Assembly (NCBI GenBank): GCA_902789675.1
Contig: CADAPG010000005.1
Span: forward strand, 868-64,867
Length of the DNA stretch: 64,000 nucleotides
Direction of reading: 5' to 3'
From: an uncultured Eubacteriales bacterium
Lineage (GTDB): Bacteria > Bacillota > Clostridia > Christensenellales > CAG-138
Every line of letters starts with the position of its first letter. Position 1 is the first letter of the stretch. The notes below the pieces were generated by a model. That model saw only the letters and a list, made by a program, of their open reading frames with translations. It was not told the DNA's origin and did no database searches. Shown here piece after piece: positions 1 to 39,341 of this stretch. Both the position numbers and the translations under genes were made by a program.

Positions 1-18
1 CAAAGCGGTATTATACTC

Positions 19-711
19 GTGCAGACGGATGTGCCTACTGCTGCCCCGAGATCCATCATTCCTAACCTTGAGATCGGCGTCCCTCTCGTGCTACGAGAGC
101 GAGAGGGACGCCCAGTTAAAACCGTTATGGAGAAAAAGCTATCGGACGTCGCAATCCTGCAGAGTGGATTGGTCCTGAGTCGAAAAGAAGCGAGAGCCGG
201 AGATGACGCAATCGAGTATAAGCGATTGAATCTTCGGTCAGTTGAAGCTGGTGGCAAAATCAACTTGTCAACACTCGAAGCTTATTATTCGAGAAGCGAA
301 ATACCGCCTGCTCAACTCACAAAGAAGAATGATATTGTAATTCGATTGCTCGACCCTCTTTATCCTGTTCTTATCGGAAAAAGCGAAGAAGGATTGGTAG
401 TTCCATCACAACTGGCAATCATACGAGTTACAAATAATATGGTTCTGCCGGCTTTCTTGTGCATATTTCTGTCGCGGCCGGCTATCTCTGAAAAACTGAC
501 GGCTGAAGACACGCACGCGTTCAGGACCATTTCTGTTGGTGCGATTTTAAACACCACGATACCTATTCTCCCACTGGACATTCAAAAAAAGCTGATTGAG
601 ATTTACAACGCAAATAATCGTCGTATTCAGCTGTACCGCGAGTTAATTGAAAAGGAACAACTTTACACAGACCTTGTAATTGAAAAAATGATTGGAGGAC
701 ATCATGAGTAA
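19..711 (+). CDS. hsdS: Type I R-M specificity subunit, half-size (one target-recognition domain plus C-terminal coiled-coil conserved region). The 5' end is uncertain: GTG19, ATG127, or upstream of the window.
   Basis: TRD-like body followed by the helical tail LPLDIQKKLIEIYNANNRRIQLYRELIEKEQ typical of HsdS conserved regions. The stop overlaps the hsdM start. There is no in-frame stop between nt 1 and 19, so the ORF may be open to the left edge. Confidence 0.7.
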   Translation: MQTDVPTAAPRSIIPNLEIGVPLVLREREGRPVKTVMEKKLSDVAILQSGLVLSRKEARAGDDAIEYKRLNLRSVEAGGKINLSTLEAYYSRSEIPPAQLTKKNDIVIRLLDPLYPVLIGKSEEGLVVPSQLAIIRVTNNMVLPAFLCIFLSRPAISEKLTAEDTHAFRTISVGAILNTTIPILPLDIQKKLIEIYNANNRRIQLYRELIEKEQLYTDLVIEKMIGGHHE

Positions 712-3291: not shown

Positions 3292-3938
3292 TGAGCAATC
3301 CTAAAAAGAATGATCCAAGACAATTCTCGGAAAGGCATCCGAAGTGGAACACAATACTGGGTTTGTTTTTATTTTTGATATTGTTAGCAGCAGCAGGGAC
3401 GATACTGTTCTTCGGATTCAAATTCCTAGGAATTGCGATATCACGCTTTCTTGACTGGCTCAAAGACATTTCATCCAGTTTTGACGCTGTTGTCATAGTT
3501 GCTTTGATAACAGGGACTGTTTCGATCATTACAGTTCTTATTAGTTCCGTTGTCGCAAAAAGCATTGAATATAAAAAACAAAGACGTGCTTATCTTGCTC
3601 AAAAACGCGAAAAATCATATGGTGAATTCGTTGAGATGGTATATAAAATACAAATGTATAGTAAAAATGCTGGAAGCTATACAGAAGAAGAAATGAAAGA
3701 TGATATTCGGTCTTTTTCACAAGAATTAACACTCTGGGGGTCGAAAAGAGTTGCTGATAAATGGGTTCAGTTTAGACTGAATGGTGTAAACCCAAAGGTT
3801 GCTACAGATAATTTGTTTTTATTAGAACAAATAATGAACGAAATGAGAAAAGATCTCGGAGTAAAGCGTGTGAAGAAGGGAAAATTGCTTTCGTTTTTTG
3901 TCAATGACATAGATTCGATTATGGGGAAAAACAAATGA
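3288..3938 (+). CDS. Hypothetical 2-TM membrane protein with a ~125-aa helical cytoplasmic tail, nested in the R-M operon
   Basis: Two hydrophobic helices (ILGLFLFLILLAAAGTILFFGF and VVIVALITGTVSIITVLISSVVA) followed by a charged helical region. ATGA overlap with rhuM upstream and with hsdS downstream. No family recognised. Confidence 0.6.
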   Translation: MMSNPKKNDPRQFSERHPKWNTILGLFLFLILLAAAGTILFFGFKFLGIAISRFLDWLKDISSSFDAVVIVALITGTVSIITVLISSVVAKSIEYKKQRRAYLAQKREKSYGEFVEMVYKIQMYSKNAGSYTEEEMKDDIRSFSQELTLWGSKRVADKWVQFRLNGVNPKVATDNLFLLEQIMNEMRKDLGVKRVKKGKLLSFFVNDIDSIMGKNK

Positions 3939-5224
3939 CCACGAAAATCAAGCAACGAATTGAACAGACTCGTCGCGGGGAAGTGCCTGAGGGATATTGT
4001 ATGAAAAGAGCAATGCTATATCCTATGGGCTGGGGGGAGCCAACACCTTTGAACACCGTACTGCACGAGAATACAGATAGAAATGAAAAACTAGAATATG
4101 GGAAGGAGGACGTTCTATCGGTTTCTGGTGAACTTGGGATAATTAACCAGATTGAGCTCCTTGGCCGATCATATGCAGGAGAGTCTGTTGCTCCATATCA
4201 TGTCGTGGAAACAGGTGATGTGGTATATACAAAGAGCCCGCTGAAGGACAATCCGTATGGAATTATTAAGCAGAACCGCGGTAAACCAGGGATAGTATCA
4301 ACACTCTATGCGGTATACCATTGTGATAACCTGATTACCGGTCAGTATCTTGAAAACTATTTTTCTATTGACTCCTTTTTGAACAACTACCTTAGACCTA
4401 TCGTAAAACGTGGTGCAAAAAATGACATGAAAGTCAACAACGAGGATGTTCTGTTGGGAACAATTCCGCTTCCTCAAATTGATGAACAAAAGATAATCAA
4501 CGAAATAATATCTCATGCGGATCATCTAATCAGGCTTAAGCAAATGCTGATTGATGAACTGAAGAAGTTAAAGCGGGCATGCCTGGCAAAGATGTTTCCT
4601 CAAGAAGGGGAAACGGTACCGGAGATTCGCTTCCCTGGATTCACTGCTCCTTGGGAAAAGCGAATGCTTAGGGATGAATTCGCAAGAAGAAGTGAACGAA
4701 ATGACGGCTCGTTCAAAAAACAACATTGGATTTCTGTTGCGAAAATGTATTATCAATCAGCAGATAAAGTCCAATCAAATAATATAGATACAAGAACATA
4801 TATCATGAGGAAAGGAGATATCGCTTTCGAAGGACACCCAAATGCAGATTTCAAGTATGGGAGATTTGTTGTAAACGATATTGGTGATGGCATTATTTCA
4901 GAGCTATTTCCTATTTATCGACATTTAGGGGAGTTTGATATTGCGTATTGGAAAGTGGCTATTCAAAAAGAAGACATCATGGCACCAATAATAGCAAAAG
5001 CAATAACGACGTCAGGTGCTTCTTCAAACAAGCTTAATGAAGAACACTTTTTACGGCAATTTATATTTGTTCCTTCAATGCCAGAACAAGTTGTGATTGG
5101 AAAGTTCTTTTCTTGCTTGGACTCCATGATTAGCCTTTACCAAAACCAGCTTAAACAGGAGGTACAAAAAAAGAAAGCCATAATGCAGCTATTACTGACG
5201 GGGATCGTGAGGGTAAATCAATGA
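3935..5224 (+). CDS. hsdS: Type I R-M specificity subunit, full length (two TRDs)
   Basis: Two TRD-like halves separated by the central coiled coil IPLPQIDEQKIINEIISHADHLIRLKQMLIDELKKLKRACLAKMFPQEGE. Matching C-terminal conserved region VPSMPEQVVIGKFFSCLDSMISLYQNQL. Confidence 0.9.
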   Translation: MTTKIKQRIEQTRRGEVPEGYCMKRAMLYPMGWGEPTPLNTVLHENTDRNEKLEYGKEDVLSVSGELGIINQIELLGRSYAGESVAPYHVVETGDVVYTKSPLKDNPYGIIKQNRGKPGIVSTLYAVYHCDNLITGQYLENYFSIDSFLNNYLRPIVKRGAKNDMKVNNEDVLLGTIPLPQIDEQKIINEIISHADHLIRLKQMLIDELKKLKRACLAKMFPQEGETVPEIRFPGFTAPWEKRMLRDEFARRSERNDGSFKKQHWISVAKMYYQSADKVQSNNIDTRTYIMRKGDIAFEGHPNADFKYGRFVVNDIGDGIISELFPIYRHLGEFDIAYWKVAIQKEDIMAPIIAKAITTSGASSNKLNEEHFLRQFIFVPSMPEQVVIGKFFSCLDSMISLYQNQLKQEVQKKKAIMQLLLTGIVRVNQ

Positions 5225-6018
5225 ACATGAACAAGAAGGATGTTACGAATTCGGAAGACTTGCAAAGATATTTGCAGGAAAAGTCCCGTGAATCCGATAG
5301 GTTGTATCATTATACATCTTTTGATAGCTTGATTTGTATTATCAAAAACAAGTGTGTCCGTTTGTCAAGAATGGATTTGATGAATGATAAAGCCGAACAG
5401 ACTTTAGGACGTCAGGATCAACATTTGAAAAACTATATCATGAGTTTTACGAGAGACAAAGAGTATGTTTCTATGTGGGCGATGTATGGCAAACCGAGCG
5501 GAATAAAGATTCGGGTTGATTTTTCAAGAGATTGCTTTGAGAGAGCAATTAACAACAACTTCTATGAAGATGCTGCGCTAGTGAAGAAAATACCTTTTGA
5601 ATCCGATAACGCCCCTGGGGCATTTTATAAAAAAGATATTCTTATTTCTGATGTGGTTTACCTTGATAAGATATCACAGCAATTACGGCATAATGAGAAT
5701 AAATTCTCTAGTATTGTAGCTGATCAACTGGTTGTTAATGAAATGACAGGGTTCATCAAATATGATGCATGGGAGTTTGAAAGGGAAACGCGTTTGCGTG
5801 TATTAATGCATCATGAGAAAGGGGCTAATCTTGCGGAAATACCAAAGTATATATATGCTGGAATAGATGGGGATTTGGTTCGCGATCTGCATATTACTTT
5901 TAACCCTTGGATGTCTAAAGAATTGAAAGAAGAGATTAAAAAGAGTTTAGACTCTTTAGCAGGATGTCATTTATCATATGATAACAGTCAAAATGACGGC
6001 GAAATATCAGAGCTGTAA
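5221..6018 (+). CDS. DUF2971-like protein
   Basis: N-terminal LYHYTSFDSLICIIKNKCVRLSRMDLMNDKAEQ matches the remembered DUF2971 signature (YHYTS...L...ND..E). ATGA overlap with hsdS. Confidence 0.55.
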   Translation: MNMNKKDVTNSEDLQRYLQEKSRESDRLYHYTSFDSLICIIKNKCVRLSRMDLMNDKAEQTLGRQDQHLKNYIMSFTRDKEYVSMWAMYGKPSGIKIRVDFSRDCFERAINNNFYEDAALVKKIPFESDNAPGAFYKKDILISDVVYLDKISQQLRHNENKFSSIVADQLVVNEMTGFIKYDAWEFERETRLRVLMHHEKGANLAEIPKYIYAGIDGDLVRDLHITFNPWMSKELKEEIKKSLDSLAGCHLSYDNSQNDGEISEL

Positions 6019-6030
6019 GGAGGATAATCC

Positions 6031-6204
6031 ATGAGCATTGAAGAGCATATCAGCAAAGAAATACTCAAAAACTCTGTCAAGAATTGCCCAAACTATACGG
6101 AGAAAATGAAAAGAGATTTGTGTGAGATAATTGATGTGGGACAGACACCAGATGAGATATGCAGGGCTGTTCTGTTATACTTTGCCGCATATACTTGGTG
6201 CTGA
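6031..6204 (+). CDS. Unlisted 57-aa Cys-containing small ORF: MSIEEHISKEILKNSVKNCPNYTEKMKRDLCEIIDVGQTPDEICRAVLLYFAAYTWC
   Basis: AGGAGG at 6019-6024 lies 6 nt upstream of ATG6031, and the ORF starts 12 nt after the DUF2971 stop. It is below the 60-aa cut-off of the ORF track. Four Cys. No family recognised. Confidence 0.4.
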   Translation: MSIEEHISKEILKNSVKNCPNYTEKMKRDLCEIIDVGQTPDEICRAVLLYFAAYTWC

Positions 6205-6268
6205 ATAAAGGGCGTTGTAGCCCTGCAGGATTCTATTAGTGTGTAACAGATAATACGGAGACAGATTT

Positions 6269-9200
6269 ATGCCAAACCATACCATTTTCAATGAACGTCC
6301 GGAATCGCAGGATCGTGCAATTAGGGTAATCGAACAACTCGGCTACACGGTTGTATCACGCGGCGATGCAGAACAAAAGCGCGGATCGCGGCGAGACGTA
6401 CTCTTTTCGGGAGAGCTGCAGTCCTTTTTAGGCAAGCAGACCTATCCTTTCAACAAAGAACAACGCTTCTTTTCCGGCGGAGGGATCTCGAAAGCCGTGC
6501 GTGCCATCGATCATGTTACGGCTGCCGGTCTGTATGCCTGCAACAAAGAGATCTATGATTTGCTGTGCGAAGGGAAGAGCGTAGAGGAAACGCTGCCGGA
6601 CGGTACACAGCAATCCTTTGATATTCGCTATATCGACTTTGATCATCCGGAAAACAATATCTTTCAAGTCACGGATGAGTTTGAAGTGGAACGACCGAAC
6701 GGGAAGTTTGCCCGTCCGGATATTGTTGTGCTGATTAACGGAATCCCCGTGGTTGTGATCGAATGCAAAAAGTCTTCTGTAGACGTGATGGAAGGTGTAA
6801 CACAGAACATCCGAAACCAGGGGGACGATTATATTCCGCAGCTGTTCCGCTATACGCAGATGGTGGTTGCCGTGAATCCGAATAAGGTGCTTTACGGCAC
6901 TTGCGGAACGCCAGCAAAGCATTTTGTTTCGTGGCATGAGGATGACAAACAGTGGCTCGATGCCTGGTGCAAAAAGTGCTCGCCGGACGGACAGATTCTG
7001 GAACAGGATCGTGCGTTGGTTTCTTTGCTGCATCCGGAACGCTTGTTGGATATTATCCGCAACTTTATCATCTATGACAACAATATCAAGAAGGTCTGCC
7101 GTTATAAACAGTTCTTTGCGGTCAAGAAATGCATGGACCGTGTACTGGAGCGAGACGGCGCCAATACACGAAGCGGCGTTGTTTGGCATACGCAGGGCAG
7201 CGGCAAGACCATCACCATGATTATGCTCACGAAGATGATTATTCGGGAAAGCATGAAAAAGGACAGTCCGATCAAAAAGCCCCGATTCATCATGGTGACC
7301 GACCGTATCAACCTCGATAAGCAGATCCGTGACAACTTTATACATACACAGATGGCACCGCACAGGGCAAAGACAGGAAAGGGCTTGGTTGAACTCCTGA
7401 AAGATGACAGCAACACGGTTATTACAGCACTGGTCAACAAGTTTGAGGCGGCAATCAAGCAAAAGTATTGCAACGAGAGTAAAAACATCTTTCTATTCAT
7501 CGATGAAGGACATCGTACGCAGTATGGCTCTTTGAATATGTATATGACGGAGGTTCTGCCGAATGCAGCAAAGATTGCCTTCACAGGAACGCCGTTGATG
7601 CAGAAAACACCAGAGGGAAGCAAGACACCGATTCAACCCAAACGCAACACGTTTGCCAAGTTCGGAACGCTGATTGACAGCTATACGCTTCAGGATGCGA
7701 TTGATGACGGCGTAACGGTTCCTTTGGTTTATGAAGGCCGTGTTGTTCCGCAATCTGTTACAAGCGAGCAGATCAACGCGCATCTGAAATATATCACGGT
7801 AGGGCTTTCGGAAGATGCGAGACTGGATCTGGAAAAGAAATACAGTCAATTCGTTTATACCGCAGAAACGGAGCAGCGGTTGAATATGATCGCTTTCGAC
7901 CTGCACGAGCATTTTATCAGCTATGTAAAGCCGAAAGGATTCAAAGCGATTCTGACCTGTTCCTCACGTGCTGCAGCCGTGCAAATGTTTTACAAGCTGC
8001 GCAGCATCGGGGGGATTACTCCTGCTGTCGTCATCACACCCAACACGGCAAACGAAGGAGATGACGAGGAAAACACGACAGAATCCAAGAGAATCATCGG
8101 AGATTTCTTCAAAAAGGAAATCGATCCGCTCTACAAGAACAACTATGAGGCATACGAAGATTCTGTTACCGGTGAGTTTGTAGACCCGGAAGGGGAGATT
8201 GATCTTCTCATCGTAAAAGATAAGTTGCTGACCGGCTTTGATGCACCAATTGCTGCGGTATTGTATGTTGATAAGAAGCTGAGAGATCACACTTTGCTGC
8301 AAGCAATCGCACGTGTCAACCGCGTATATGCAGATAAGGATTTCGGATTGATCGTTGATTATATCGGGATCTTCAAGAAGTTGAATTCGGCACTTGATTT
8401 GTATTCGGACGAAAAATCCGGAATGGATGCATTCGATCAAAGCGATATTACGTCTGCAATTACCTCGGTAGAAGAAGAAAAAACTGCGTTGGAGAAAGCA
8501 CATAAGATGCTTTGGGATGTATTCGAAGGCATTCCGAAGAATGAAAAACGAGCGAATGTCTGGCAGGAGCATCTTCGCGAATATGAAAAACGCGTACTAT
8601 TCTATGAAAAACTGGCTGCTTTTGCAAAGCGCGTTGACTTCCTTTATACGAGCTACGACTTGTTCAAAGCAATCGGGCAGGAAAAGGCAGAACAATATCG
8701 AAAAGACTACTTATTCTTCAAAAAACTGAAGGATAGCGTTTCCTTGCGTTTCAACGACAGGGTAGACTTCTCGCAATATGAAGATGGCATTCGCAGATTG
8801 TTGAACACCTATGTTAATGCAGAAGATGTAAGAACGATCATAGAACCGCTCGATATTTCCAATAAGGATAAAATGGAAGAGCAGTTGGCAAGGTTGGGAT
8901 CAAACGAGGCAAAGGCAGAGGCAATTCAAACTCGTCAGGTAGAGGTCTTGGAGAGCAGAAGATTCGAAGATCCGATTCTGTACATGACCTTCATGGAGCG
9001 AATTAACAAAACGATCCGTGACTATCTTGCTGAACGTGATAGCGAAAAATACTTGTCATCTATGGAGCAACTGGCAGACGATTATCGTGCCGGCAGAGGA
9101 AGTACGAATTACCCGGAGATCATCATGGACGATGGGGACGCTAAGTCTTTCTACGGAGCGGTGTGTGCGGGAATTAAAAAGTCAATTGGCGAGGTGACCA

Positions 9201-9427
9201 ACCCGACAAGTGACGCAATGGGCAAGCTGGCAATTAGCATTAAAAACATTATAATTGCCAACACGAAAAGGGATTGGAAAGATAATATTGTCGTTCATCG
9301 CAATATCAAGAAAGCGCTTGATGACCTGCTTTTCGACTATATTGAAGAAAATCATTTAGACTGGTCGTTGGATACAATCGACATTATCATCGATGAAATC
9401 ATGATGGTCGCAAAAAAAGGATTCTGA
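6269..9427 (+). CDS. hsdR: Type I restriction enzyme R subunit (endonuclease/helicase)
   Basis: PD-(D/E)xK nuclease motif PDIVVLINGIPVVVIECKK. Helicase motif I TQGSGKT and motif II DEGHR, plus QAIARVNR. Size is typical (1052 aa). Confidence 0.95.
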   Translation: MPNHTIFNERPESQDRAIRVIEQLGYTVVSRGDAEQKRGSRRDVLFSGELQSFLGKQTYPFNKEQRFFSGGGISKAVRAIDHVTAAGLYACNKEIYDLLCEGKSVEETLPDGTQQSFDIRYIDFDHPENNIFQVTDEFEVERPNGKFARPDIVVLINGIPVVVIECKKSSVDVMEGVTQNIRNQGDDYIPQLFRYTQMVVAVNPNKVLYGTCGTPAKHFVSWHEDDKQWLDAWCKKCSPDGQILEQDRALVSLLHPERLLDIIRNFIIYDNNIKKVCRYKQFFAVKKCMDRVLERDGANTRSGVVWHTQGSGKTITMIMLTKMIIRESMKKDSPIKKPRFIMVTDRINLDKQIRDNFIHTQMAPHRAKTGKGLVELLKDDSNTVITALVNKFEAAIKQKYCNESKNIFLFIDEGHRTQYGSLNMYMTEVLPNAAKIAFTGTPLMQKTPEGSKTPIQPKRNTFAKFGTLIDSYTLQDAIDDGVTVPLVYEGRVVPQSVTSEQINAHLKYITVGLSEDARLDLEKKYSQFVYTAETEQRLNMIAFDLHEHFISYVKPKGFKAILTCSSRAAAVQMFYKLRSIGGITPAVVITPNTANEGDDEENTTESKRIIGDFFKKEIDPLYKNNYEAYEDSVTGEFVDPEGEIDLLIVKDKLLTGFDAPIAAVLYVDKKLRDHTLLQAIARVNRVYADKDFGLIVDYIGIFKKLNSALDLYSDEKSGMDAFDQSDITSAITSVEEEKTALEKAHKMLWDVFEGIPKNEKRANVWQEHLREYEKRVLFYEKLAAFAKRVDFLYTSYDLFKAIGQEKAEQYRKDYLFFKKLKDSVSLRFNDRVDFSQYEDGIRRLLNTYVNAEDVRTIIEPLDISNKDKMEEQLARLGSNEAKAEAIQTRQVEVLESRRFEDPILYMTFMERINKTIRDYLAERDSEKYLSSMEQLADDYRAGRGSTNYPEIIMDDGDAKSFYGAVCAGIKKSIGEVTNPTSDAMGKLAISIKNIIIANTKRDWKDNIVVHRNIKKALDDLLFDYIEENHLDWSLDTIDIIIDEIMMVAKKGF

Positions 9428-9430
9428 GAA

Positions 9431-10153
9431 ATGAGCAGTATTTTACTAACACTATCTAATGGGCAGATTGTTTCTGTGCAGATTGATAGAAAGAAAATGA
9501 AGACATGTCGATTAAAGGTGTTTCCTGATCGACAGATCATTCTTTCTGTTCCGGAATTCGTCAGCGATGAATGGGCAGATGCTTTTTTGGAGGAAAAAAG
9601 ATCTTGGATCGAGAAAAAACTGGAGGTATTTAATTCGACAAGAGGATATGCTTCGACAAATATAATCAAAAATGGTTTCTCTATTCAAATGCTTGGCGAA
9701 GACTTGATCTTTAGTGTATTTCAAGCCGAGAAAGACTATGTAACGCGGGAGGATCGGATTATACAAATTTGCGTTAAGGACCCATCTGATCAAGATCACA
9801 TTATGGATCTTTTCCAAAAGTGGTGGAAAAAACAAGCGTTAAGAATACTACGCGAACGCGTTGACTACTGGTATCCTATTATTCAAAAATATGGGATATC
9901 AAAACCAAAAGTGTACATAAGAAAGATGAAAACGCTTTGGGGAAGCTGCAGCAGAGACAGAGGAATCGTAACCTTCAATTTCTATTTAATAAAAGCGAGG
10001 AGCGCGTGCATTGATTACGTTGTACTTCATGAGCTGACGCATTTTCTATATCCAAACCATAGCAAGCAGTTCTATTCTTTTTTGAGTAATTATATGCCTG
10101 ACTGGAAGGAAAGGAAAACGATATTAGATCAGGATGTTGTTCATGGATTGTGA
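9431..10153 (+). CDS. DUF45/YgjP-like (M48-type) zinc metallopeptidase, a frequent hsdR neighbour
   Basis: HExxH motif in VVLHELTHFLYPNHS near the C-terminus. Starts 3 nt after the hsdR stop. Confidence 0.8.
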   Translation: MSSILLTLSNGQIVSVQIDRKKMKTCRLKVFPDRQIILSVPEFVSDEWADAFLEEKRSWIEKKLEVFNSTRGYASTNIIKNGFSIQMLGEDLIFSVFQAEKDYVTREDRIIQICVKDPSDQDHIMDLFQKWWKKQALRILRERVDYWYPIIQKYGISKPKVYIRKMKTLWGSCSRDRGIVTFNFYLIKARSACIDYVVLHELTHFLYPNHSKQFYSFLSNYMPDWKERKTILDQDVVHGL

Positions 10154-10214
10154 GAAATAGAGTACTAGCTTTACAAAGATACAACAGGATCACGAGAGAA
10201 GCTTGCATAGTTAA

Positions 10215-10265
10215 AAAAGGAGAAGAATCCTTGATCTACGAATACGTCACGGGGAAGAAGGAGGT
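10215..10265 (+). repeat. 51-nt leader element, copy 1 (3 mismatches to copy 2)
   Basis: aaaaggagaagaatccttgatctacgaatacgtcacggggaagaaggaggt, read directly. It ends 6 nt before GTG10272. Confidence 0.95.
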
Positions 10266-10269
10266 ATAA
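10231..10269 (+). promoter_or_regulatory. Candidate leader micro-ORF (TTG start) encoding (M)IYEYVTGKKEV, stop TAA
   Basis: AGGAG-N8-TTG. Codons 10-12 (aag gag gta) form the GGAGG Shine-Dalgarno of the 444-aa ORF. The stop lies 2 nt before GTG10272. Confidence 0.4.
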
Positions 10270-10271
10270 TT

Positions 10272-11606
10272 GTGCGAATGAGGAAAGATAAACTGACGGG
10301 AGCTTTAGATGATGCGAACATTGTTTTTAGTAACAATGATTATCAGTTTACTCTAATGGCAGCTAATAAAGAAGAACCAGAATGTAAACTTGAGTCTTCT
10401 GACGGGTTTATCTATGGTACCTCGTATTACAACAAAAGAGTTGGACTTTTTATTGGGGAATCAAAACTGTGCATTAGCAAATCGCTGTTGTACACTCCTT
10501 TACTCTACGTTCAGTCAGAAACAGCTTGGAATAAAAACATAGATATCAGCAAGTTTCAGCGCATCGTGTTTTCAGGAGGAACACTCAATAATCTTTTTGA
10601 AACTCGATTCTATCAAGATCAGTTACAATTTGATAATGACAAAATAACTATTAACTACCCTACATATAAAAAGCAGTATTCATTTAGAATAAAAGGGACT
10701 AAATGTAATATTACAATTGGCATACTTCCGAACGATTCCTGTGATGATACCTCCTTAAACTATCATAATGAGGCTTACATATGTTTAGAATTTGAGGAAG
10801 AACAACCGTTATCAGATGTGCGAATGCATTATAAATATATTAATCAGGTAGTGTCTGTTATGACACATAGAAAAGAGAATCACTTCGATTATATATTTGT
10901 AGAACAAAGTGGAGACGCGATGATGAGGATGATGAACAGATGTTTGGTTCATCTATGGGAGAATGATAATGCTCAAATGCACAGTAACTGTTGCGCTACA
11001 TTTGATTTTCTGGGAGATAGTCTACCGAGACTATTAAGTCTCGTCTATAACAGTAAAGACAAAGAGGCATCGTACTCATTAGGTTTCATACCGCAAAACA
11101 ATGATGATAGCAGAATCATTACAGATGACACAATTCGATCAATATCAGCGGCCATTGAATGCGAATATCAATTGAGTGATGATCTAACAATTAATTATTC
11201 AGAAGAGTTGGATACAATTTGTGAATTGGCAAGAAATGCAGTAATTAAGTACCGTGAAGAGTATAAGAACTCTACAAAGCTTTCTCCAGATACATATAAT
11301 TCCATTTTCAAAAGTATAAGCTTTTGGAAGATAACTACCGCTGAAAAGGCTTATGCCTTATACGAAAGATTCAAGAACAATATGGAGAGTTATTTTAGCT
11401 TTCGGCAGAGAATAGCGCAGGAAGACATACAACGATTTGTACAGTATAGAAACAGCATATCACATGGTAGTTATCGTAAGATGACGAAGGAAATTAGAGA
11501 TACGGCTTTTGCAATGAAAGTGCTGGTGTATTATAGTTTGCTTCATCGTATTGGTATTCCCGATGAGAAGTTGAATGAATTAAATGTTATGGGGGTTGTG
11601 TTTTGA
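10272..11606 (+). CDS. ApeA-like HEPN-domain protein: beta-rich N-terminal region plus C-terminal HEPN with RNSISH
   Basis: FVQYRNSISHGSYRK (R-x4-H) lies about 45 aa from the C-terminus, where HEPN helix 4 sits. Size and layout resemble the single-gene ApeA abortive-infection proteins. This assignment is from memory only. Confidence 0.5.
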   Translation: MRMRKDKLTGALDDANIVFSNNDYQFTLMAANKEEPECKLESSDGFIYGTSYYNKRVGLFIGESKLCISKSLLYTPLLYVQSETAWNKNIDISKFQRIVFSGGTLNNLFETRFYQDQLQFDNDKITINYPTYKKQYSFRIKGTKCNITIGILPNDSCDDTSLNYHNEAYICLEFEEEQPLSDVRMHYKYINQVVSVMTHRKENHFDYIFVEQSGDAMMRMMNRCLVHLWENDNAQMHSNCCATFDFLGDSLPRLLSLVYNSKDKEASYSLGFIPQNNDDSRIITDDTIRSISAAIECEYQLSDDLTINYSEELDTICELARNAVIKYREEYKNSTKLSPDTYNSIFKSISFWKITTAEKAYALYERFKNNMESYFSFRQRIAQEDIQRFVQYRNSISHGSYRKMTKEIRDTAFAMKVLVYYSLLHRIGIPDEKLNELNVMGVVF

Positions 11607-11618
11607 TAAGAATAAGGG

Positions 11619-12197
11619 GTGATTTGCGTGCTGCTACAAATAATAAATGAAATTAAACAGTGCATATCCAATGATCTATACCTCGCTGCTTTGAGCATGG
11701 CACTGACGATTCCGGATATATGCGGTAAAGCAGAGTATCCCGAGCTGAAAGATAATAGAGACAAAACGAAGAAACGCTATGTGCAGTGGTTTGATACATA
11801 CATCGGGCAACATCAACGCAAATATAGCATTTCTGAAAATGACGGTGTGCCTGATCTCCCATATATCAGCGGCGAACTGGTTTACAAGCTGAGGAACAGC
11901 GTTTTGCATTCCGGCATGGTTGATGTTGACGGACAGAAACTCTCAGAAGAGCAGAACAAGGTTACGAAATTCCGGTTGATGATTTCGGAGAATTTGAGCG
12001 GCGGCTATGCAGCAAGCGATGCAGCGATCACTCGTTCATTGAGCGGTGAAGAAGTGAGCAGGGAATACACGGTTTCGATCCAGTATCTTTGCAACATCCT
12101 TTGTTACGCTGCTGAGAAGTATTACAATGCAAACAAGGATAAGTTCGATTTCTTCCAATACAACATCGTTGACGAACGAAAAGGGGAAAGAGTATGA
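11619..12197 (+). CDS. Small HEPN-like protein (RNSVLH motif); start is GTG11619 or GTG11628
   Basis: Helical N-terminal half LAALSMALTIPDICGK ... ELVYKLRNSVLHSG contains an R-N-x3-H motif. AAGGGG precedes GTG11628. The gene begins 12-21 nt after the upstream stop. Confidence 0.5.
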   Translation: MICVLLQIINEIKQCISNDLYLAALSMALTIPDICGKAEYPELKDNRDKTKKRYVQWFDTYIGQHQRKYSISENDGVPDLPYISGELVYKLRNSVLHSGMVDVDGQKLSEEQNKVTKFRLMISENLSGGYAASDAAITRSLSGEEVSREYTVSIQYLCNILCYAAEKYYNANKDKFDFFQYNIVDERKGERV

Positions 12198-12811
12198 GCA
12201 AGAACGAAAAGCAAAACAAACAACGTAATTTGATAATTGCCGTCTTTTGCGTTATGGCGTTCTTCGTGACGGCGGCTCTGTTATTGGATGTATTCGATGT
12301 TCCGTCAAGACTCGGCTTTAACTGCAAAGATGTGAATTGGAGCATCCAAGGGACAATCATCGGCTCGGTTATTACGATTGGATTGTATCTCATAACATAC
12401 CTGTTAATTCAGCGATGGGATCTAAGAAGGCAGAATAATAAGCAAGAGATAGCTGTCCTGCTATTAAAAGATGCCTATACTGATTGTGAAAAGGGCTTGG
12501 CAATTTTAGAAAAAGGCTATTATCAGATGTTGAAGGATTCTGACGATGATATCGCAAAACAAATTTGCTCCAACGCCGAAAGATTTGCGGATTCATCTTT
12601 TCAAAACGAAACTGTTATCATGGATCTATGCAAAGATGGAGTGATTTCGTCAGAACAGTTGAGAGCCTATTTCAGGGTAAAAACATTTTACTTACAATAC
12701 GTTAGGCTGTCTCTTGCCATGCCGGACAATTCAGGCTTGCATAAGAAAACCAAAGAGATGGCGGAACAAGAAATAAAAGCGGCACTTGAATTGTTAGATA
12801 AGGAAAGATAG
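12194..12811 (+). CDS. Hypothetical 2-TM membrane protein with a helical C-terminal domain
   Basis: TM helices LIIAVFCVMAFFVTAALLLDVF and TIIGSVITIGLYLITYLLI. ATGA overlap with the mini-HEPN gene. No family recognised. Confidence 0.6.
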   Translation: MSKNEKQNKQRNLIIAVFCVMAFFVTAALLLDVFDVPSRLGFNCKDVNWSIQGTIIGSVITIGLYLITYLLIQRWDLRRQNNKQEIAVLLLKDAYTDCEKGLAILEKGYYQMLKDSDDDIAKQICSNAERFADSSFQNETVIMDLCKDGVISSEQLRAYFRVKTFYLQYVRLSLAMPDNSGLHKKTKEMAEQEIKAALELLDKER

Positions 12812-12816
12812 TCGAC

Positions 12817-12867
12817 AAAAGGAGAAAAGTCCTTGATCTACGAATATGTCACGGGGAAGAAGGAGGT
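12817..12867 (+). repeat. 51-nt leader element, copy 2
   Basis: aaaaggagaaaagtccttgatctacgaatatgtcacggggaagaaggaggt, read directly. It ends 9 nt before ATG12877. Confidence 0.95.
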
Positions 12868-12880
12868 TGCCGATTCATGA
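12833..12880 (+). promoter_or_regulatory. Candidate leader micro-ORF copy 2, (M)IYEYVTGKKEVADS; the stop TGA overlaps ATG12877 (ATGA)
   Basis: Same AGGAG-N8-TTG and the same first 12 codons as copy 1. The only codon difference is TAC to TAT (both Tyr). Confidence 0.4.
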
Positions 12881-14073
12881 CAATAAAAGAGCTGGGCTTG
12901 TTGCTTCACGAATACGATGTGTATGATGCACTGCAGTTTATCACTGGCGCACAGAGAGCAATTCTTTCAGCTCTGTTTTGCAAGGATGTAATAGCTGGCT
13001 TACATAACGAAGTTCAAACCGTGACAGAGAAATGGGATGAAGCAATATCTGAAAAAGTAAAAGAGAACCGCGGGAAAGGTGGATGGACAGGGGTTAGCGA
13101 CTGGCCGAATTATAATGTGACAATTGCTGGTGTCGAGATCAACTCGATGTTTGTTCAGGATTTCTTGGTTAGAACTTTCTTTCAGAACGGAAGAAATGCT
13201 TTTGATATATTAGCGCAAGCGGCGAATACCGGATGCTTGGCGACGAAAGCAAAAGCAATTGAACGTGTTAATTTTCGAAGGATGAGCGAGGCTTTCCAAC
13301 AGCAGACATATCAGCAAGCTTCCCCGGAAATGAGCGAGTGGTTCAGCAGTATAGCAAATTCTGACGAATTTAAATATATTGACGCATACTGCAACAGAAC
13401 AAAGCATACGTGTTCGATACCAACGAAGTTTACGATGCCAATACTCAGTAGTGATAATACCGCGACGATACCGGCGTTTCATAAAGAAACCAATCAGTAT
13501 GATGAAAAGGATGTATTAGAACATATTCCTGCTATTTATGAATTCGTTTCAAAAGTGTACCATGATTTCATCGTAATCTTGAAGAAGGAGATAACGAAGC
13601 GTACATATACGGATAACAGGTACTATACTGTAAAGGTTTATCAGCAGAAATATCGTCAAAAGGAGGAGGAAGGTTTCTCGGCTGCGCTGATCGAAGCAAC
13701 AACAGACATAGGTTCTATGCCGGATTCCATACAGATCCTGTTTGCTAAAGCACTCAAGTATAGCGATGGCAACAAAGAGGTAATGGCGCAGAATTGTCCA
13801 TTTGATACGGTTTATATCAAAGCAAAGGATGCAACAGACGAATGCGACTTCATCGGTAAATATGTAGCGAAGGATGTCATTGTCAAGGATGCTCTTCTTC
13901 GATTCAGAACATATAAGAAAGTAATACCTGATAAAGGCGAACAACCGTTGGCTTTGCAAGCGGCGGGGGATGAGAAGCAAAAAGGGAAGTATTATCGCGC
14001 CAACCATTTCTTTGCTATAAAAACAGTCAGCGACGATGAAGCGTTTCTTAAAAAGGTAAATCTGACACTGTAA
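12877..14073 (+). CDS. Hypothetical 398-aa protein, possibly a degenerate HEPN (CNRTKH)
   Basis: Helical N-terminal half with FFQNGRNAFDILAQAAN and IDAYCNRTKHT. The N and H line up with RNSISH and RNSVLH of the two upstream proteins, but the canonical R is a C. The C-terminal ~200 aa are unassigned. Confidence 0.35.
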   Translation: MTIKELGLLLHEYDVYDALQFITGAQRAILSALFCKDVIAGLHNEVQTVTEKWDEAISEKVKENRGKGGWTGVSDWPNYNVTIAGVEINSMFVQDFLVRTFFQNGRNAFDILAQAANTGCLATKAKAIERVNFRRMSEAFQQQTYQQASPEMSEWFSSIANSDEFKYIDAYCNRTKHTCSIPTKFTMPILSSDNTATIPAFHKETNQYDEKDVLEHIPAIYEFVSKVYHDFIVILKKEITKRTYTDNRYYTVKVYQQKYRQKEEEGFSAALIEATTDIGSMPDSIQILFAKALKYSDGNKEVMAQNCPFDTVYIKAKDATDECDFIGKYVAKDVIVKDALLRFRTYKKVIPDKGEQPLALQAAGDEKQKGKYYRANHFFAIKTVSDDEAFLKKVNLTL

Positions 14074-14082
14074 GAGGGAAGA

Positions 14083-14406
14083 GTGATGGAAAAACGAGCT
14101 ACACTGGATGATAGAATCTATACTGCGATCAGGGATAAAGCGGAAGCGTGGGAAGTGGCTGAATTGTCTGCTGAAGAAACACAAGAAAAGCTTTGCGATG
14201 CCACGACGGAAGCTTTTGATAACATTATTCCCGGGGAACGGGTTGATAGGTTCGAGTATTATAAATCACATATGTATGGCTTTGGTCAACTCGTGCAAGA
14301 TGTACACGAAGGTATAATGAACGCTCCTATTGGTTCAAGCGATGAAAAGAAAATAGAACAAAATGCGCCGCAAACAGTTGTTTCCGACGAATTGCCAGAC
14401 CTTTGA
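14083..14406 (+). CDS. Small acidic hypothetical protein (107 aa; ATG14086 is an alternative start)
   Basis: GAGGGAAGAG lies upstream. The protein is rich in D/E. It starts 10 nt after the 398-aa ORF and ends 9 nt before the next ORF. Confidence 0.5.
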   Translation: MMEKRATLDDRIYTAIRDKAEAWEVAELSAEETQEKLCDATTEAFDNIIPGERVDRFEYYKSHMYGFGQLVQDVHEGIMNAPIGSSDEKKIEQNAPQTVVSDELPDL

Positions 14407-14415
14407 GGAAAGAAT

Positions 14416-15996
14416 ATGTCCGAACGTTATACTCGCTTATTTACACTTCCGGAGGGAAACCTATATGCTATCGGTTCTTCTATTATCATTTGTGCCGGAG
14501 CATTATTAAAAGACACTTTATCTGGAAACATTATCGCGCAGTTGAAGTTTCGCAACATCGGAAACAAAACAGTCTCTGCTTTGAAGGTTTCTATACGAAC
14601 GTATGATATTTTTGGAAAAGAATTAGAAGGTATAACAGAGTATCAGTATCTAGATTTAGCGGTTTTGAGGGATCAAGAATTCGGTCAGAAAACCGCTGTG
14701 GTTCTGCCAAACCCGGATACTCGTTCTTTTTGCTGTGATTGCCGTAGCATAGTATTTGCTGATGGCTCTGTTTGGGAAGCAAAAGAAGCGAATTGGTCAC
14801 CTTTGAAAAAGCAAGAATCATTACAATCTCGTTTTGGCGATCTGATAAGTCAATATCAACGTGATATAGGAGATCCGGAAGCAAGATTTGTTGCAATCGA
14901 AGACCGCGATCTTTGGCTTTGCACGTGTGGGGCAATCAACAATAGTGAGGAAAAAATCTGTCATAGTTGCAAGACAAGAATTGAGAAATTAAAAGAGGCA
15001 GAAGATATGACGCTCTTAAATGAGCATTTACAGGAGTATCTACAGAAGGAAGAACAGGCTCGTCTTGAAACTGAACGCAGAGCAGAAATCGCACGTGCGG
15101 AAGAAGCACAAAAAGCTGAAGAAGAACGAATCGCGGCAGAAAAAACGAAAAAGAGATGGAAACAAATTGTTGCGATAGTAACGCCGATCATTCTTGCTTG
15201 CATCGCTTTTGTCATAGTATTAGTCTCTTATATAATTCCTAATAAGAAATACAATTCGGCTTTAGAACTCTACAAATCCAGAAAATACGAAGAGGCAATT
15301 GCGGCATTTGAAGCAATAGCAGGATTTAAGGATAGTAAGGAGAAGATTCAAGTCATCAAGCCTTTGTACCACGATGAATTACTGAATAATGCAAGCGCTG
15401 GATCAGTAGTATTCTTCGGATGCTATGAACAGGATAATGAAGTGGCTACAGCAAATGAAGATATTGAGTGGTTAGTGCTAAAAAGAGATAACAATAGAAT
15501 CCTTTTGATCAGTAGATATGTACTTGATTGTCATCGTTTTGATTATGATATACCCGAGGGAAGCGCATCATGGGGAAATTCATCAATCAGATACTGGCTT
15601 AATAATTCCTTTTTTGAGAATGCCTTTTCAAGTGAAGAACAGGAAAGAATACAAGCGATCCCCATTGAATCAATATCTCCTGCAACTGGCTATGTTTATA
15701 CCACAACAGACAAAGTGTTCTTGTTATCAATTAGCGAAGCAAGCGATTATTTTGTAACAGACAAAGAAAGGACCTGTTTGCCTACAGATTATGCTTCTGA
15801 ACAGATTGTTGTTAATGGAGGTAAACTATACGGGGCAACATGCGAGTGGTGGTTATTGCCTTCTGATAGCGACCCAGCAGGTGTATATGCTGCAGGTGTA
15901 TTAGATGATGGTTGGATTCAACGAAGTCTTCTTAGTGACATAACATACTTTGGTGTACGACCAGTGATATGGGTTGATTTAAATAGTGAAAATTAA
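14416..15996 (+). CDS. Zn-ribbon / coiled-coil / single-TM / DUF6273-like protein
   Basis: CTCGAINNSEEKICHSCK (CxC...CxxC). Charged coiled coil EQARLETERRAEIARAEEAQKAEEERIAAEK. TM helix IVAIVTPIILACIAFVIVLVSYII. The C-terminal WWLLPS...YFGVRPVIWVDL resembles the DUF6273 pattern. Confidence 0.6.
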   Translation: MSERYTRLFTLPEGNLYAIGSSIIICAGALLKDTLSGNIIAQLKFRNIGNKTVSALKVSIRTYDIFGKELEGITEYQYLDLAVLRDQEFGQKTAVVLPNPDTRSFCCDCRSIVFADGSVWEAKEANWSPLKKQESLQSRFGDLISQYQRDIGDPEARFVAIEDRDLWLCTCGAINNSEEKICHSCKTRIEKLKEAEDMTLLNEHLQEYLQKEEQARLETERRAEIARAEEAQKAEEERIAAEKTKKRWKQIVAIVTPIILACIAFVIVLVSYIIPNKKYNSALELYKSRKYEEAIAAFEAIAGFKDSKEKIQVIKPLYHDELLNNASAGSVVFFGCYEQDNEVATANEDIEWLVLKRDNNRILLISRYVLDCHRFDYDIPEGSASWGNSSIRYWLNNSFFENAFSSEEQERIQAIPIESISPATGYVYTTTDKVFLLSISEASDYFVTDKERTCLPTDYASEQIVVNGGKLYGATCEWWLLPSDSDPAGVYAAGVLDDGWIQRSLLSDITYFGVRPVIWVDLNSEN

Positions 15997-16424
15997 ATAA
16001 TAATTCCTACATGATAACTGCAATGTTAGCATATATAAAAAGGAGGTAAACAATATGAAGATTATTAAATCCATTTTGTTGATCTCCAGCATAGCACTAT
16101 TGCTTTTGTAGCCTCTGGTGCTGCTGGGGATCGTGACAGACCCGGCTGTTGTGGCTGTGGCTTCATGGTTTAATTTCGTTGTTGATTTCGTATAGCTAGT
16201 TATTAGCATATGGGAAAAATGCATGAATAAATCGCGAAAGCCGCGCACATAATGCGTGTCCACCGGGATTCGGAACACTCCGAATCCCGGTGTTAATATA
16301 TTCATAATGATAATTGTTTAGTAATGATTATGTTTTCCAAAGCATTAACTTGGTTTGTTTTGTAAAAGTATTATGCATAAAATGTTGAAAACAACGGGCG
16401 ATGAACAGCACCTCCAAAAAGCCG

Positions 16425-16457
16425 GTGTCGTCAAAGTGTCGTCAAAGTGTCGTCAAA
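16425..16457 (+). repeat. Perfect 3 x 11-bp tandem repeat (gtgtcgtcaaa)
   Basis: Read directly. It lies 66 nt from the tRNA 3' end in the ORF-free island border. Confidence 0.9.
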
Positions 16458-16494
16458 ACCCCAAAAATGACAGTTTGCGAAAGAACCAAAAAGG

Positions 16495-16523
16495 AAAAAT
16501 GCCCTAGATTAGGGCACTTTTTT
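16495..16523 (-). terminator. Bidirectional intrinsic terminator just past the tRNA 3' end
   Basis: GCCCTA-gat-TAGGGC stem flanked by an A-run (16495-16500) and a T-run (16518-16523). Confidence 0.6.
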
Positions 16524-16598
16524 GGTTGCGGGGGCAGGACTTGAACCTGCGGCCTCCGGGTTATGAGCCCGACGAGCTACCGACTGCTCCACCCCGCG
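16523..16598 (-). tRNA. Initiator tRNA-fMet (anticodon CAT), CCA encoded
   Basis: The reverse complement is CGCGGGGTGGAGCAGTCGGTAGCTCGTCGGGCTCATAACCCGGAGGCCGCAGGTTCAAGTCCTGCCCCCGCAACCA. It folds as a cloverleaf, with the C1:A72 mismatch and the GGG/CCC anticodon stem of initiator tRNAs. It is nearly identical to E. coli tRNA-fMet as I remember it. Confidence 0.95.
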
Positions 16599-39058: not shown

Positions 39059-39127
39059 CCTGCCGAAAATACCGAAAAAGTTCACAATTCAAAAAAAGGG
39101 TTTTGGCAAAAAACGTCGTATTTATTG

Positions 39128-39334: not shown

Positions 39335-39341
39335 TATTTAC

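What the first reader, a model, noticed from the sequence alone, without database searches (positions are those of the whole stretch)
10215..12880. Duplicated 51-nt leader carrying a conserved 12-codon micro-ORF in front of two different large genes
Nt 10215-10265 recur at 12817-12867 with only 3 mismatches, although the flanking genes are unrelated. Each copy contains AGGAG-N8-TTG followed by identical codons for (M)IYEYVTGKKEV. The single mismatch inside those codons is synonymous (TAC/TAT), and the other two lie in the SD-start spacer. The GGAGG Shine-Dalgarno of the main gene is built from micro-ORF codons 10-12. The micro-ORF ends 2 nt before GTG10272 in copy 1 and overlaps ATG12877 (ATGA) in copy 2. 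This suggests a leader peptide gating translation of the downstream, probably toxic, genes by termination-reinitiation or ribosome occupancy. Alternatively it marks a portable cassette junction.
Basis: seen in the sequence. Interest (0 to 1): 0.7.

Follow-up and report, generated by a model that had tools for sequence, protein, structure and literature searches.

The report
Fossil hsdS tail marking cargo junctions
The repeated "leader with a micro-ORF" is the leftover last 12-15 codons of a restriction-enzyme specificity gene (hsdS) that travels with defence genes and marks where different cargo gene sets were spliced into a mobile island; nothing indicates a dedicated regulatory leader peptide.

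Summary
The repeat is real: 10215-10265 and 12817-12867 differ at 3 positions, and homology extends to 10207-10265 / 12808-12867. The leader-peptide interpretation is not supported.

LIYEYVTGKKEV is the extreme C-terminus of a widespread family of type I R-M specificity proteins (HsdS). In 89 genomes from many phyla, these codons nearly always end a roughly 400-450-aa HsdS ORF. The next gene starts 3-9 nt later, usually with an ATGA-type overlap. The GGAGG Shine-Dalgarno and the stop/start overlap are therefore inherited from hsdS.

Homologues of the window's cargo genes (DUF8310, ApeA-like HEPN, the 192-aa and 205-aa ORFs) sit directly behind intact hsdS genes elsewhere. Related islands with the same hsdR-YgjP backbone (92-97% identical) carry one relic followed by four other cargo arrays. 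Homology breaks inside the relic.

The window stacks two arrays, which gives the direct repeat around a 2.6-kb ApeA module. No RNA structure, promoter, terminator or recombinase accompanies the relic.

Still open is whether the acquired AAAGGAG-N8-TTG makes the relic a translated coupling ORF. This is a modest new variant of known things: genes embedded in type I R-M loci and recombination at conserved hsdS regions.

The parts
10207..10265 (+). Repeat copy 1. About 24 nt of non-hsdS sequence carrying AAAGGAG (SD, 10216-10222), then the hsdS-tail relic. It is the left border of the cargo slot downstream of hsdR-YgjP.
   Evidence: Backbone homology to L094, L112 and L118 (92-97%) ends at 10262-10265.
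10231..10269 (+). Micro-ORF 1: TTG + 11 codons + TAA (LIYEYVTGKKEV*). It is the fossil of the last 12 codons of an hsdS gene. GGAGG (10260-10264) serves as SD for GTG 10272.
10272..12811 (+). First cargo array: ApeA-like HEPN protein (10272-11606), 192-aa ORF (11619-12197) and 205-aa ORF (12194-12811). It is absent from related islands L094, L104 and L118.
   Evidence: One search gave weak HEPN_Apea/ApeA_NTD1 hits. In one search, homologues lie directly after hsdS tails in L073, L072/L044 and L061. Searches show the insertion relative to L094.
12808..12867 (+). Repeat copy 2, the head of the second cargo array. Its left part, including the SD, is about 82% identical to copy 1, and its hsdS-derived part is 35/36 identical.
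12833..12880 (+). Micro-ORF 2: LIYEYVTGKKEVADS*, with TGA overlapping ATG 12877 (ATGA). It is in frame with the preceding 205-aa ORF across that ORF's TAG stop.
   Evidence: Native hsdS-DUF8310 junctions in L095, L098 and L106 have the same ATGA/TAATG arrangement.
12877..15996 (+). Second cargo array: DUF8310 protein (12877-14073), 107-aa ORF (14083-14406) and DUF6273 protein (14416-15996).
   Evidence: DUF8310 homologues sit between intact hsdS and hsdR in L095-L098 and L106-L109.
6269..10153 (+). Backbone to which the relic is attached: hsdR (6269-9427) and a YgjP-like metallopeptidase (9431-10153) of an unrelated type I system.
   Evidence: The backbone is 92-97% identical in L094, L112, L118 and L121-L125.
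3935..5224 (+). Resident hsdS of the island. Its C-terminus is ...IMQLLLTGIVRVNQ, not LIYEYVTGKKEV, so the relics do not derive from it and cannot recombine with it.
16523..16598 (-). tRNA-Met at the right end of the low-GC island (38-48% GC, against about 60% beyond it).

Best explanation
The repeated sequence is a fossil of the 3' end of a type I R-M specificity gene (hsdS). It comprises the last 12-15 codons, ...S-LIYEYVTGKKEV-x0-3-stop, fused on its left to about 24 nt of foreign sequence that happens to carry AAAGGAG.

In intact systems of this HsdS family, the tail is the fixed left border of a variable slot between hsdS and hsdR. The next gene uses the GGAGG encoded by the K-K-E-V codons as its ribosome-binding site. 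It starts 3-9 nt later, usually overlapping the hsdS stop.

In the mobile island of this window, one such tail without the rest of hsdS sits downstream of hsdR-YgjP of a different type I system. There it is the left border of a cargo slot. Inferred: cargo arrays were swapped or added by recombination between this relic and hsdS tails or relics on donor DNA. This would be homologous or homology-facilitated illegitimate recombination, and each incoming array keeps a ready-made translation start context.

The window carries two stacked arrays, ApeA-192-205 and then DUF8310-107-DUF6273. Each is headed by a relic, which produces the 59/60-nt direct repeat around a 2.6-kb module.

Shown: the hsdS origin of the relic, the native coupling architecture, the variable cargo on one backbone, and the breakpoints inside the relic. 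Inferred: the recombination mechanism, and that synonymous-only variation in codons 1-10 reflects selection in intact hsdS donors rather than on the micro-ORF.
For: (1) A degenerate peptide-pattern scan found 89 loci in Clostridia, Bacteroidota, Spirochaetota, Fibrobacter, Planctomycetes and other groups. In most of them the motif ends a roughly 400-450-aa ORF. Several others were cut by contig ends, and four were short relics or frameshifted. Three of these ORFs were scanned and carry two Methylase_S domains each. One relates to the solved S subunit 1YF2.

(2) In native loci the next gene starts 3-9 nt after GARGT. It is hsdR in roughly a third of loci and diverse cargo in the others.

(3) Cargo homologues lie directly behind hsdS. 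This holds for DUF8310 at 72%, 62% and 61% identity with an ATGA/TAATG overlap. It also holds for ApeA in L073, the 192-aa ORF in L044 and L072, and the 205-aa ORF in L061.

(4) The relic's codon choices GTCACGGGGAAGAAGGAGGT occur in 0 of 89 native tails. They occur exactly in the hsdS tail upstream of a DUF8310 homologue in L106-L109.

(5) L094 shows the window's left flank at 97.2% identity up to 10265 and the right flank at 82.9% from 12808, with a single relic and no ApeA module.

(6) Five cargo arrays sit on one backbone, and homology ends at 10262-10265.

(7) Backbones without the relic have a terminator hairpin straight after YgjP instead.

(8) Independent hsdS-tail relics of other lengths precede cargo elsewhere: TIR-TIR-relic-Fic in L083, and relic followed by a YhcG nuclease in L035 and L032.

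(9) There is no significant RNA fold (z = -1.7, 0.4, 0.2), no promoter or terminator at the relics, no Rfam hit, and no recombinase among the island ORFs scanned.
Against: - Among six relic alleles, codons 1-10 show only synonymous changes: 5 events on about 6 synonymous sites out of 30. The adjacent SD-ATG spacer is saturated with changes. I attribute this to import from intact hsdS, but it is also what selection on a translated peptide would give.
- AAAAGGAGAA upstream of TTG is identical in both window copies, although their flanks are only about 82% alike. This is not significant (about p=0.1 by my count).
- The homology available for recombination is short, about 36-45 nt.
- No donor with exactly the relic's right-hand sequence plus ApeA444 was found.
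- How the second relic came to follow the 205-aa ORF is unresolved. The join is at ATAGT.
Confidence: 0.8

Rival explanations
1. Constitutive coupling ORF. After hsdS was lost, the relic acquired an SD (AAAGGAG) 8 nt before the Leu codon TTG. A 12-15-codon ORF is therefore translated and ends at or over the cargo start. This would preserve the termination-reinitiation coupling that cargo genes enjoy behind hsdS. It is compatible with the relic/junction explanation.
For: SD-N8-TTG is present in every relic allele, including the diverged copy 2. The ORF is open in all six alleles and always stops within 2 nt of, or overlapping, the cargo start. Only synonymous changes occur in codons 1-10.
Against: - The left part, including the SD, is identical by descent in the backbone copies, so only copy 2 is an independent data point.
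- Frame and stop position are inherited automatically from native hsdS junctions.
- Each cargo gene already has a strong SD of its own at a workable spacing: GGAGG 7 nt before GTG 10272 and 10 nt before ATG 12877.
- Coupling would not explain conservation at the amino-acid level.
Confidence: 0.3
2. Regulatory leader peptide. A nascent-peptide or ribosome-occupancy sensor gates translation of toxic effectors, for example in response to phage or translation stress.
For: The peptide is invariant in its first 10 residues across alleles. The downstream genes are plausible toxic defence effectors such as ApeA-like HEPN.
Against: - The peptide is simply the HsdS C-terminus found in 89 or more genomes.
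- No alternative or SD-sequestering structure exceeds shuffles.
- There is no terminator and no Rfam family.
- The last residues and the length vary: EV, EI, DA, +ADS, +SAS, +TVS, +I.
- In native loci the same sequence precedes hsdR and many non-toxic genes.
Confidence: 0.05
3. Site-specific recombination site. The relic would be an attC-like or att-like site recognised by a recombinase that inserts and excises circular cargo cassettes.
For: Direct repeats flank a 2.6-kb module. An 'empty' single-copy site exists in L094. The chimeric pattern fits single-crossover integration of a circle: copy 1's left part matches the backbone, and copy 2's right flank matches the L094 cargo.
Against: - No integrase or recombinase was found among the island ORFs scanned.
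- The relic has no inverted-repeat or hairpin structure.
- Breakpoints differ between alleles: at or before nt 18 of the ORF in L094 and L118, at or before nt 21 in L104, and about nt 32 in L112.
- The relic-specific pattern was not found in JGI metagenomes or IMG/VR, so it is not a widespread site.
Confidence: 0.08
4. Silent hsdS segments of a phase-variable type I system (shufflon or inverton).
For: Partial hsdS sequences sharing conserved repeats are typical of such loci (PMC7672463).
Against: The copies are direct repeats, not inverted. They contain no target-recognition domain. The resident hsdS has a different tail, LLLTGIVRVNQ. No recombinase gene was found.
Confidence: 0.02

Closest known systems
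Accessory or defence genes embedded in type I R-M operons: PrrC in the type IC EcoprrI locus, C. jejuni restriction-linked ORFs, TgvAB in V. cholerae VPI-2, and 'guilt-by-embedding' (PMC12707154; PMC11411939; bioRxiv 10.1101/2024.01.29.577857)
   Same: In the native loci found here, the cargo (DUF8310, Fic, ApeA-like and many unknowns) sits between hsdS and hsdR. It is expressed from the operon, as with prrC or tgvAB.
   Different: In the window the cargo is not between hsdS and hsdR. It lies downstream of hsdR-YgjP of another type I system and has kept only the last 12-15 codons of its former hsdS neighbour. In the text I searched, these papers did not describe the hsdS tail as a conserved, reusable junction.
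Recombination at conserved regions of hsdS (TRD shuffling, 'domain movement', phase-variable invertons; PMC3077401, PMC7672463)
   Same: A short conserved hsdS segment acts as the crossover point between otherwise unrelated sequences.
   Different: Here the exchanged material is whole downstream genes, not target-recognition domains. The anchor is an orphan fragment outside any hsdS. The repeats are direct, and no invertase is present.
'3' end of ORF - intergenic region - 5' end of next ORF' as a unit of evolution in tandem clusters (PMC2568036, abstract only)
   Same: A conserved gene end plus its junction, rather than the ORF, behaves as the recombining unit.
   Different: That case concerns tandem paralogues in S. 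aureus. This one concerns unrelated cargo genes and horizontal capture.
Translational coupling by overlapping stop/start (ATGA) with the SD inside the upstream ORF
   Same: The architecture is the same: GGAGG in the last codons, and the stop overlaps or lies 2 nt before the next start.
   Different: The upstream ORF is a 12-15-codon fossil with a secondarily acquired SD and a TTG start. Whether it is translated is unknown.

Membership tests
HsdS (type I R-M specificity subunit) gene fragment | Sequence corresponds to the conserved C-terminal region of HsdS | tested here: met
   LIYEYVTGKKEV ends roughly 400-450-aa ORFs in most of 89 loci. Three of them were scanned and have two Methylase_S domains each, and one relates to the 1YF2 S subunit.
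HsdS (type I R-M specificity subunit) gene fragment | Target-recognition domains and a coiled-coil conserved region are present (a functional hsdS) | tested here: not met
   Only 12-15 codons remain, and stops or foreign sequence lie upstream. The upstream 205-aa ORF has no Methylase_S hit. It is therefore a relic, not a gene.
Phase-variable hsdS inverton or shufflon | Inverted repeats shared with an expressed hsdS, plus an adjacent recombinase | tested here: not met
   Both copies are on the + strand with no inverted copy. The resident hsdS tail differs. No recombinase domain was found in the island ORFs scanned.
Integron-type cassette site (attC) | Imperfect palindrome that folds as a hairpin, with an IntI integrase nearby | tested here: not met
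   Fold z-scores were -1.7, 0.4 and 0.2. No integrase was found.
Regulatory leader peptide or attenuator | Leader ORF coupled to alternative RNA structures or a terminator that control downstream expression | tested here: not met
   No structure exceeds shuffles. There is no terminator-like or promoter-like site at either copy and no Rfam match.
Regulatory leader peptide or attenuator | Peptide sequence conserved because of its own function (for example ribosome arrest) | tested here: inconclusive
   Codons 1-10 show synonymous changes only, while codons 11-12 and the length vary. Inheritance from intact hsdS explains this equally well.
Translationally coupled gene pair | Upstream stop overlaps or abuts the downstream start, and the SD lies inside the upstream ORF | tested here: met
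   TAA-TT-GTG in copy 1 and ATGA in copy 2, L094, L104, L112 and L118, with GGAGG in codons 10-12.
Translationally coupled gene pair | Downstream translation depends on translation of the upstream ORF | not testable with these tools
   Needs reporter fusions or ribosome profiling.
Defence genes embedded in a type I R-M operon (PrrC-like architecture) | Cargo lies between subunit genes of one type I system | tested here: not met
   This holds for the homologues in L095-L098 and L106-L109. In the window the relic-led cargo lies after hsdR-YgjP, outside the subunit genes.

The most novel reading that the evidence does not exclude
The orphan hsdS tail is a maintained 'docking adaptor' rather than a mere scar. 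By keeping the codons of the conserved HsdS C-terminus, and its own SD and TTG start, a mobile element could capture any cargo gene that sits behind an hsdS of this very widespread family by short-homology recombination. The captured gene would be expressed at once through the inherited stop/start coupling. Purifying selection would then act on the relic, both for homology to donors and for translation. That would be an integrase-free analogue of an integron attachment site for defence genes.
Probability: 0.2. Interest if true: 0.6.

Novelty: new variant of a known kind. Interest (0 to 1): 0.33.

Why it matters
The finding removes a tempting false lead: a conserved micro-ORF in front of toxic genes is in fact a gene fossil. 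It shows concretely how defence cargo moves between type I R-M loci and mobile islands.

The conserved hsdS tail carries the next gene's ribosome-binding site, and it marks the break points where cargo differs. On one backbone I found five different cargo arrays behind it, plus independent relics in other phyla.

In practice, hsdS-tail relics could be used as search handles to find uncharacterised defence cargo, and to recognise cargo that once lived inside a type I operon. If the relic proved to be maintained by selection, it would be a simple recombinase-free gene-capture device.

Tried and rejected
- Rfam scan of the whole window: only tRNA-Met.
- RNA folding of both copies, of L094 and of two native junctions: no significant or shared structure.
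- Promoter and terminator scan around both copies: nothing at the relics.
- Exact 35-mer in JGI metagenomes: 0 hits.
- Relic-specific pattern (GGAGAA-N3-TCN-DTG...) in JGI metagenomes and IMG/VR: 0 hits. The relic form looks confined to this island lineage in the collections I could scan.
- The degenerate pattern in IMG/VR gave 5 hits: four end full-length hsdS ORFs and one is cut by its contig end. No short relic was found.
- Homologue search for ApeA444 returned only itself.
- Exact-protein look-ups of ApeA444, DUF8310 and YgjP from the window returned only the same island.
- Phase-variation, integron and attenuator models were considered and rejected on their defining features (see the membership test).
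- I considered that the 205-aa ORF plus relic 2, which are in frame across a TAG, might be a broken half-hsdS. Pfam gives no Methylase_S signal, and its homologue in L061 is a separate gene behind an intact hsdS.
Full report
**1. Observation.** The repeat exists exactly as described. Window 10215-10265 and 12817-12867 are 48/51 identical. A 37-nt core occurs only at these two places, and 0 of 100 shuffles gave any match.

Reading the sequence:
- AGGAG lies at 10218-10222, followed by 8 nt and then TTG at 10231.
- The shared codons read L/M-IYEYVTGKKEV.
- In copy 1, TAA (10267-10269) is followed by TT and GTG 10272.
- In copy 2 there are three more codons (ADS), and TGA overlaps ATG 12877.
- Two mismatches fall in the SD-start spacer. 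The third is TAC/TAT.
- The two downstream proteins (444 and 398 aa) are unrelated.
- Compared with a related island, the repeated unit is really 59/60 nt: 10207-10265 and 12808-12867.

**2. Setting.** Positions 1-16500 form a low-GC island (38-48%) in a roughly 60% GC genome, and it ends at tRNA-Met 16523-16598. All island genes read on the + strand:
- hsdM (692-2272)
- RhuM (2269-3291)
- a 216-aa ORF
- hsdS (3935-5224)
- DUF2971 (5221-6018)
- hsdR (6269-9427)
- YgjP-like peptidase (9431-10153)
- copy 1 of the repeat
- ApeA-like HEPN (10272-11606)
- a 192-aa ORF and a 205-aa ORF
- copy 2 of the repeat
- DUF8310 (12877-14073)
- a 107-aa ORF
- DUF6273 (14416-15996)

The region is a defence island built around a type I R-M system.

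**3. What the micro-ORF is.** I scanned one genome per species for the peptide back-translated with free third positions (DTGATHTAYGARTAYGTNACNGGNAARAARGARGT). This gave 89 loci in Clostridia, Bacilli, Negativicutes, Bacteroidales, Spirochaetales, Fibrobacter, Planctomycetes, Opitutales, Alphaproteobacteria and Gastranaerophilales.

In most of them the motif is the end of a roughly 400-450-aa ORF reading ...KC.EID.LI.K......YKKS-LIYEYVTGKKEV-(0-6 aa)-stop. Several others were cut by contig ends, and four were short relics or frameshifted. Three of these ORFs were scanned and have two Methylase_S domains each. One was compared with solved structures and relates to the S subunit 1YF2, whose conserved regions end in the equivalent ...LLLTGKVR motif.

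The 'micro-ORF' is therefore the extreme C-terminus of HsdS. Third codon positions vary freely among the 89 loci, as expected for conservation at the protein level.

The island's own hsdS ends differently (...LLLTGIVRVNQ). The relics come from another type I family.

**4. Why the SD and the stop/start overlap are there.** In the native loci the gene after hsdS starts 3-9 nt after GARGT, often as ATGA or TAATG. Its SD is therefore the GGAGG encoded by K-K-E-V. That next gene is hsdR in roughly a third of loci. In the others it is a very diverse set of cargo genes such as Fic.

The features that looked designed are thus the ordinary hsdS-to-next-gene junction of this family.

**5. The cargo genes come from such junctions.**
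- DUF8310 homologues at 72%, 62% and 61% identity lie directly behind intact 433-440-aa hsdS genes and ahead of hsdR, with ATGA/TAATG overlaps.
- The specific codon choices of the window relic (GTCACGGGGAAGAAGGAGGT) occur in none of the 89 representative tails. They occur exactly in the hsdS tail upstream of one of these DUF8310 homologues, in L106-L109.
- An ApeA444 homologue (L073), 192-aa homologues (L044, L072) and a 205-aa homologue (L061) also follow hsdS tails.

**6. The relic is a junction of exchangeable cargo.** Members of the same 90% YgjP cluster revealed related islands.
- L094 matches window 4275-10265 at 97.2% and window 12808-14275 at 82.9%. It has one relic and no ApeA module.
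- L104 and L105 have a single relic followed by another DUF8310 allele and DUF5677.
- L112-L116 have a relic followed by ApeA495, a remnant of the 192-aa gene, RES and a 251-aa ORF.
- L118-L120 have a relic followed by DUF5677 and a 343-aa ORF.

In every case, backbone homology (92-97%) stops at window 10262-10265, inside the relic. It resumes only at a common right flank: DUF6076, HTH_17 and ParB, plus NikA-like and relaxase genes in L118. The host structure is therefore a mobilisable element.

The first difference from the backbone falls at nt 18 (L094, L118), nt 21 (L104) or nt 33 (L112) of the ORF. The scatter argues against a fixed cleavage site.

Other backbones with the same hsdR-YgjP (93-95% identical up to 10147) lack the relic. 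They have a terminator hairpin and convergent genes instead.

Independent relics of other lengths exist elsewhere: TIR-TIR followed by a 24-codon tail and Fic in L083, and relics ahead of a YhcG/DUF1016 nuclease in L035 and L032.

**7. How the window's duplication arose (inference).** Two relic-headed arrays are stacked. Copy 1's left part matches the backbone. Copy 2's left part is a diverged version (about 82%) of the same non-hsdS leader. Copy 2's right flank is the DUF8310 array.

This pattern would result from single-crossover integration of a circular relic-ApeA-192-205 segment. It would equally result from an illegitimate join at ATAGT between two relic-bearing elements. I cannot tell these apart.

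The two copies share perfect blocks of only 17 and 20 nt, so deletion of the module by RecA would be infrequent.

**8. Is the micro-ORF itself functional?** Evidence against a regulatory leader:
- no fold better than shuffles;
- no terminator or promoter at the relics;
- no Rfam family;
- variation in the last residues and in length (EV*, EVADS*, EVSAS*, EITVS*, DA*, EVI*).

Points left open:
- The relic's left part supplies AAAGGAG 8 nt before TTG, so the ORF could be translated.
- All six alleles keep the frame and end at the cargo start.
- Codons 1-10 show five synonymous and no non-synonymous differences. With about 6 of 30 sites synonymous, that is roughly p ~ 1e-3 under neutrality by my estimate.

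My reading is that the right-hand parts of the relics were imported with their cargo from intact hsdS genes, where selection acted. Frame and stop position are then inherited automatically. This rests on the sharp 97% to 83% identity drop inside the relic and on the exact codon match to a native tail. A translated coupling ORF is not excluded, and I put it at about 0.3. It does not conflict with the relic/junction model.

**9. Comparison with what is known.** Genes embedded in type I R-M operons are well documented: PrrC in EcoprrI, TgvAB, and large-scale 'guilt-by-embedding' (PMC12707154; PMC11411939; bioRxiv 10.1101/2024.01.29.577857). Recombination at conserved hsdS regions is known for specificity shuffling and phase variation (PMC3077401; PMC7672463).

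Three things differ here. The conserved tail survives as an orphan fragment outside any hsdS. It heads cargo arrays downstream of an unrelated type I system. It is also the breakpoint for at least five cargo configurations.

I did not find this described in the papers I searched, but my literature search was limited.

**10. Verdict.** The leader-peptide interpretation is not supported. This is a modest new variant of known phenomena, and I score interest at about 0.33.

Noticed in passing
window 39128-39307 (wider 39086-39340): About 13 tandem copies of a 14-nt AT-rich unit (TAATTACATAGATA) lie in a roughly 60% GC genome. They look like iterons or protein-binding repeats.
   Followed up: no
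window 16425-16457: Three perfect tandem copies of GTGTCGTCAAA lie between the last island ORF and tRNA-Met (16523-16598), at the GC jump. They could be part of the island end or attachment region.
   Followed up: no
window 22644-22750: A 12/24-nt tandem repeat (GAGCAGCCGGCA...) in a GC-rich stretch. I did not check whether it lies in a coding region.
   Followed up: no
window 24030-24711 vs 32575-33250: Two segments about 8.5 kb apart are roughly 70% identical, probably paralogous genes.
   Followed up: no
window 2269-3938 and 5221-6204: The resident type I operon itself has embedded genes: RhuM and a 216-aa ORF between hsdM and hsdS, and a DUF2971 protein plus a 57-aa ORF between hsdS and hsdR. 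Related islands carry different genes in these slots (DUF4145, DUF6680, DUF6119).
   Followed up: partly
window 12194-12880: The 205-aa ORF is in frame with micro-ORF 2 and separated from it only by its TAG stop (12809-11) and 7 codons. There is no HsdS signal in the ORF, so this is probably coincidence.
   Followed up: partly
L112 9329-9437: The 110-nt gap between ApeA495 and the RES gene holds remnants of the 5' and 3' ends of the window's 192-aa gene (83-86% identity to 11629-11680 and 12140-12198). This is an internal deletion of that gene.
   Followed up: partly
L094 8253-8550; L112 11094-11321; L118 9932-10223: The right border of the variable cargo slot contains several mutually similar segments of about 60-145 nt (70-95% identical, offset by about 83 nt), just before a conserved 47-aa ORF and a DUF6076 gene on the opposite strand. 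Their nature is unknown.
   Followed up: no
L121-L125, just after YgjP: Islands with the same hsdR-YgjP but no relic have a strong hairpin (AACAAACCGCAGCT...AGCTGCGGTTTGTT) followed by convergent DUF2971-like and YunG genes. Beyond these they carry other defence genes (McrBC, GmrSD-HNH, HipA).
   Followed up: partly
L083 (oriented 3967-7335): Two TIR-domain proteins (352 aa each) are followed by a 24-codon hsdS-tail relic (KIDELKKYKKIVIYEYVTGKKEVV*) and a Fic gene. In L015 a homologue of that Fic protein follows an intact hsdS.
   Followed up: partly
L044 (oriented ~4800-4910): An hsdS tail with an extra A in an A-run (AAAAAAA) just before the motif puts the upstream hsdS out of frame. This could be a sequencing error, a pseudogene or a homopolymer switch.
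   Followed up: no
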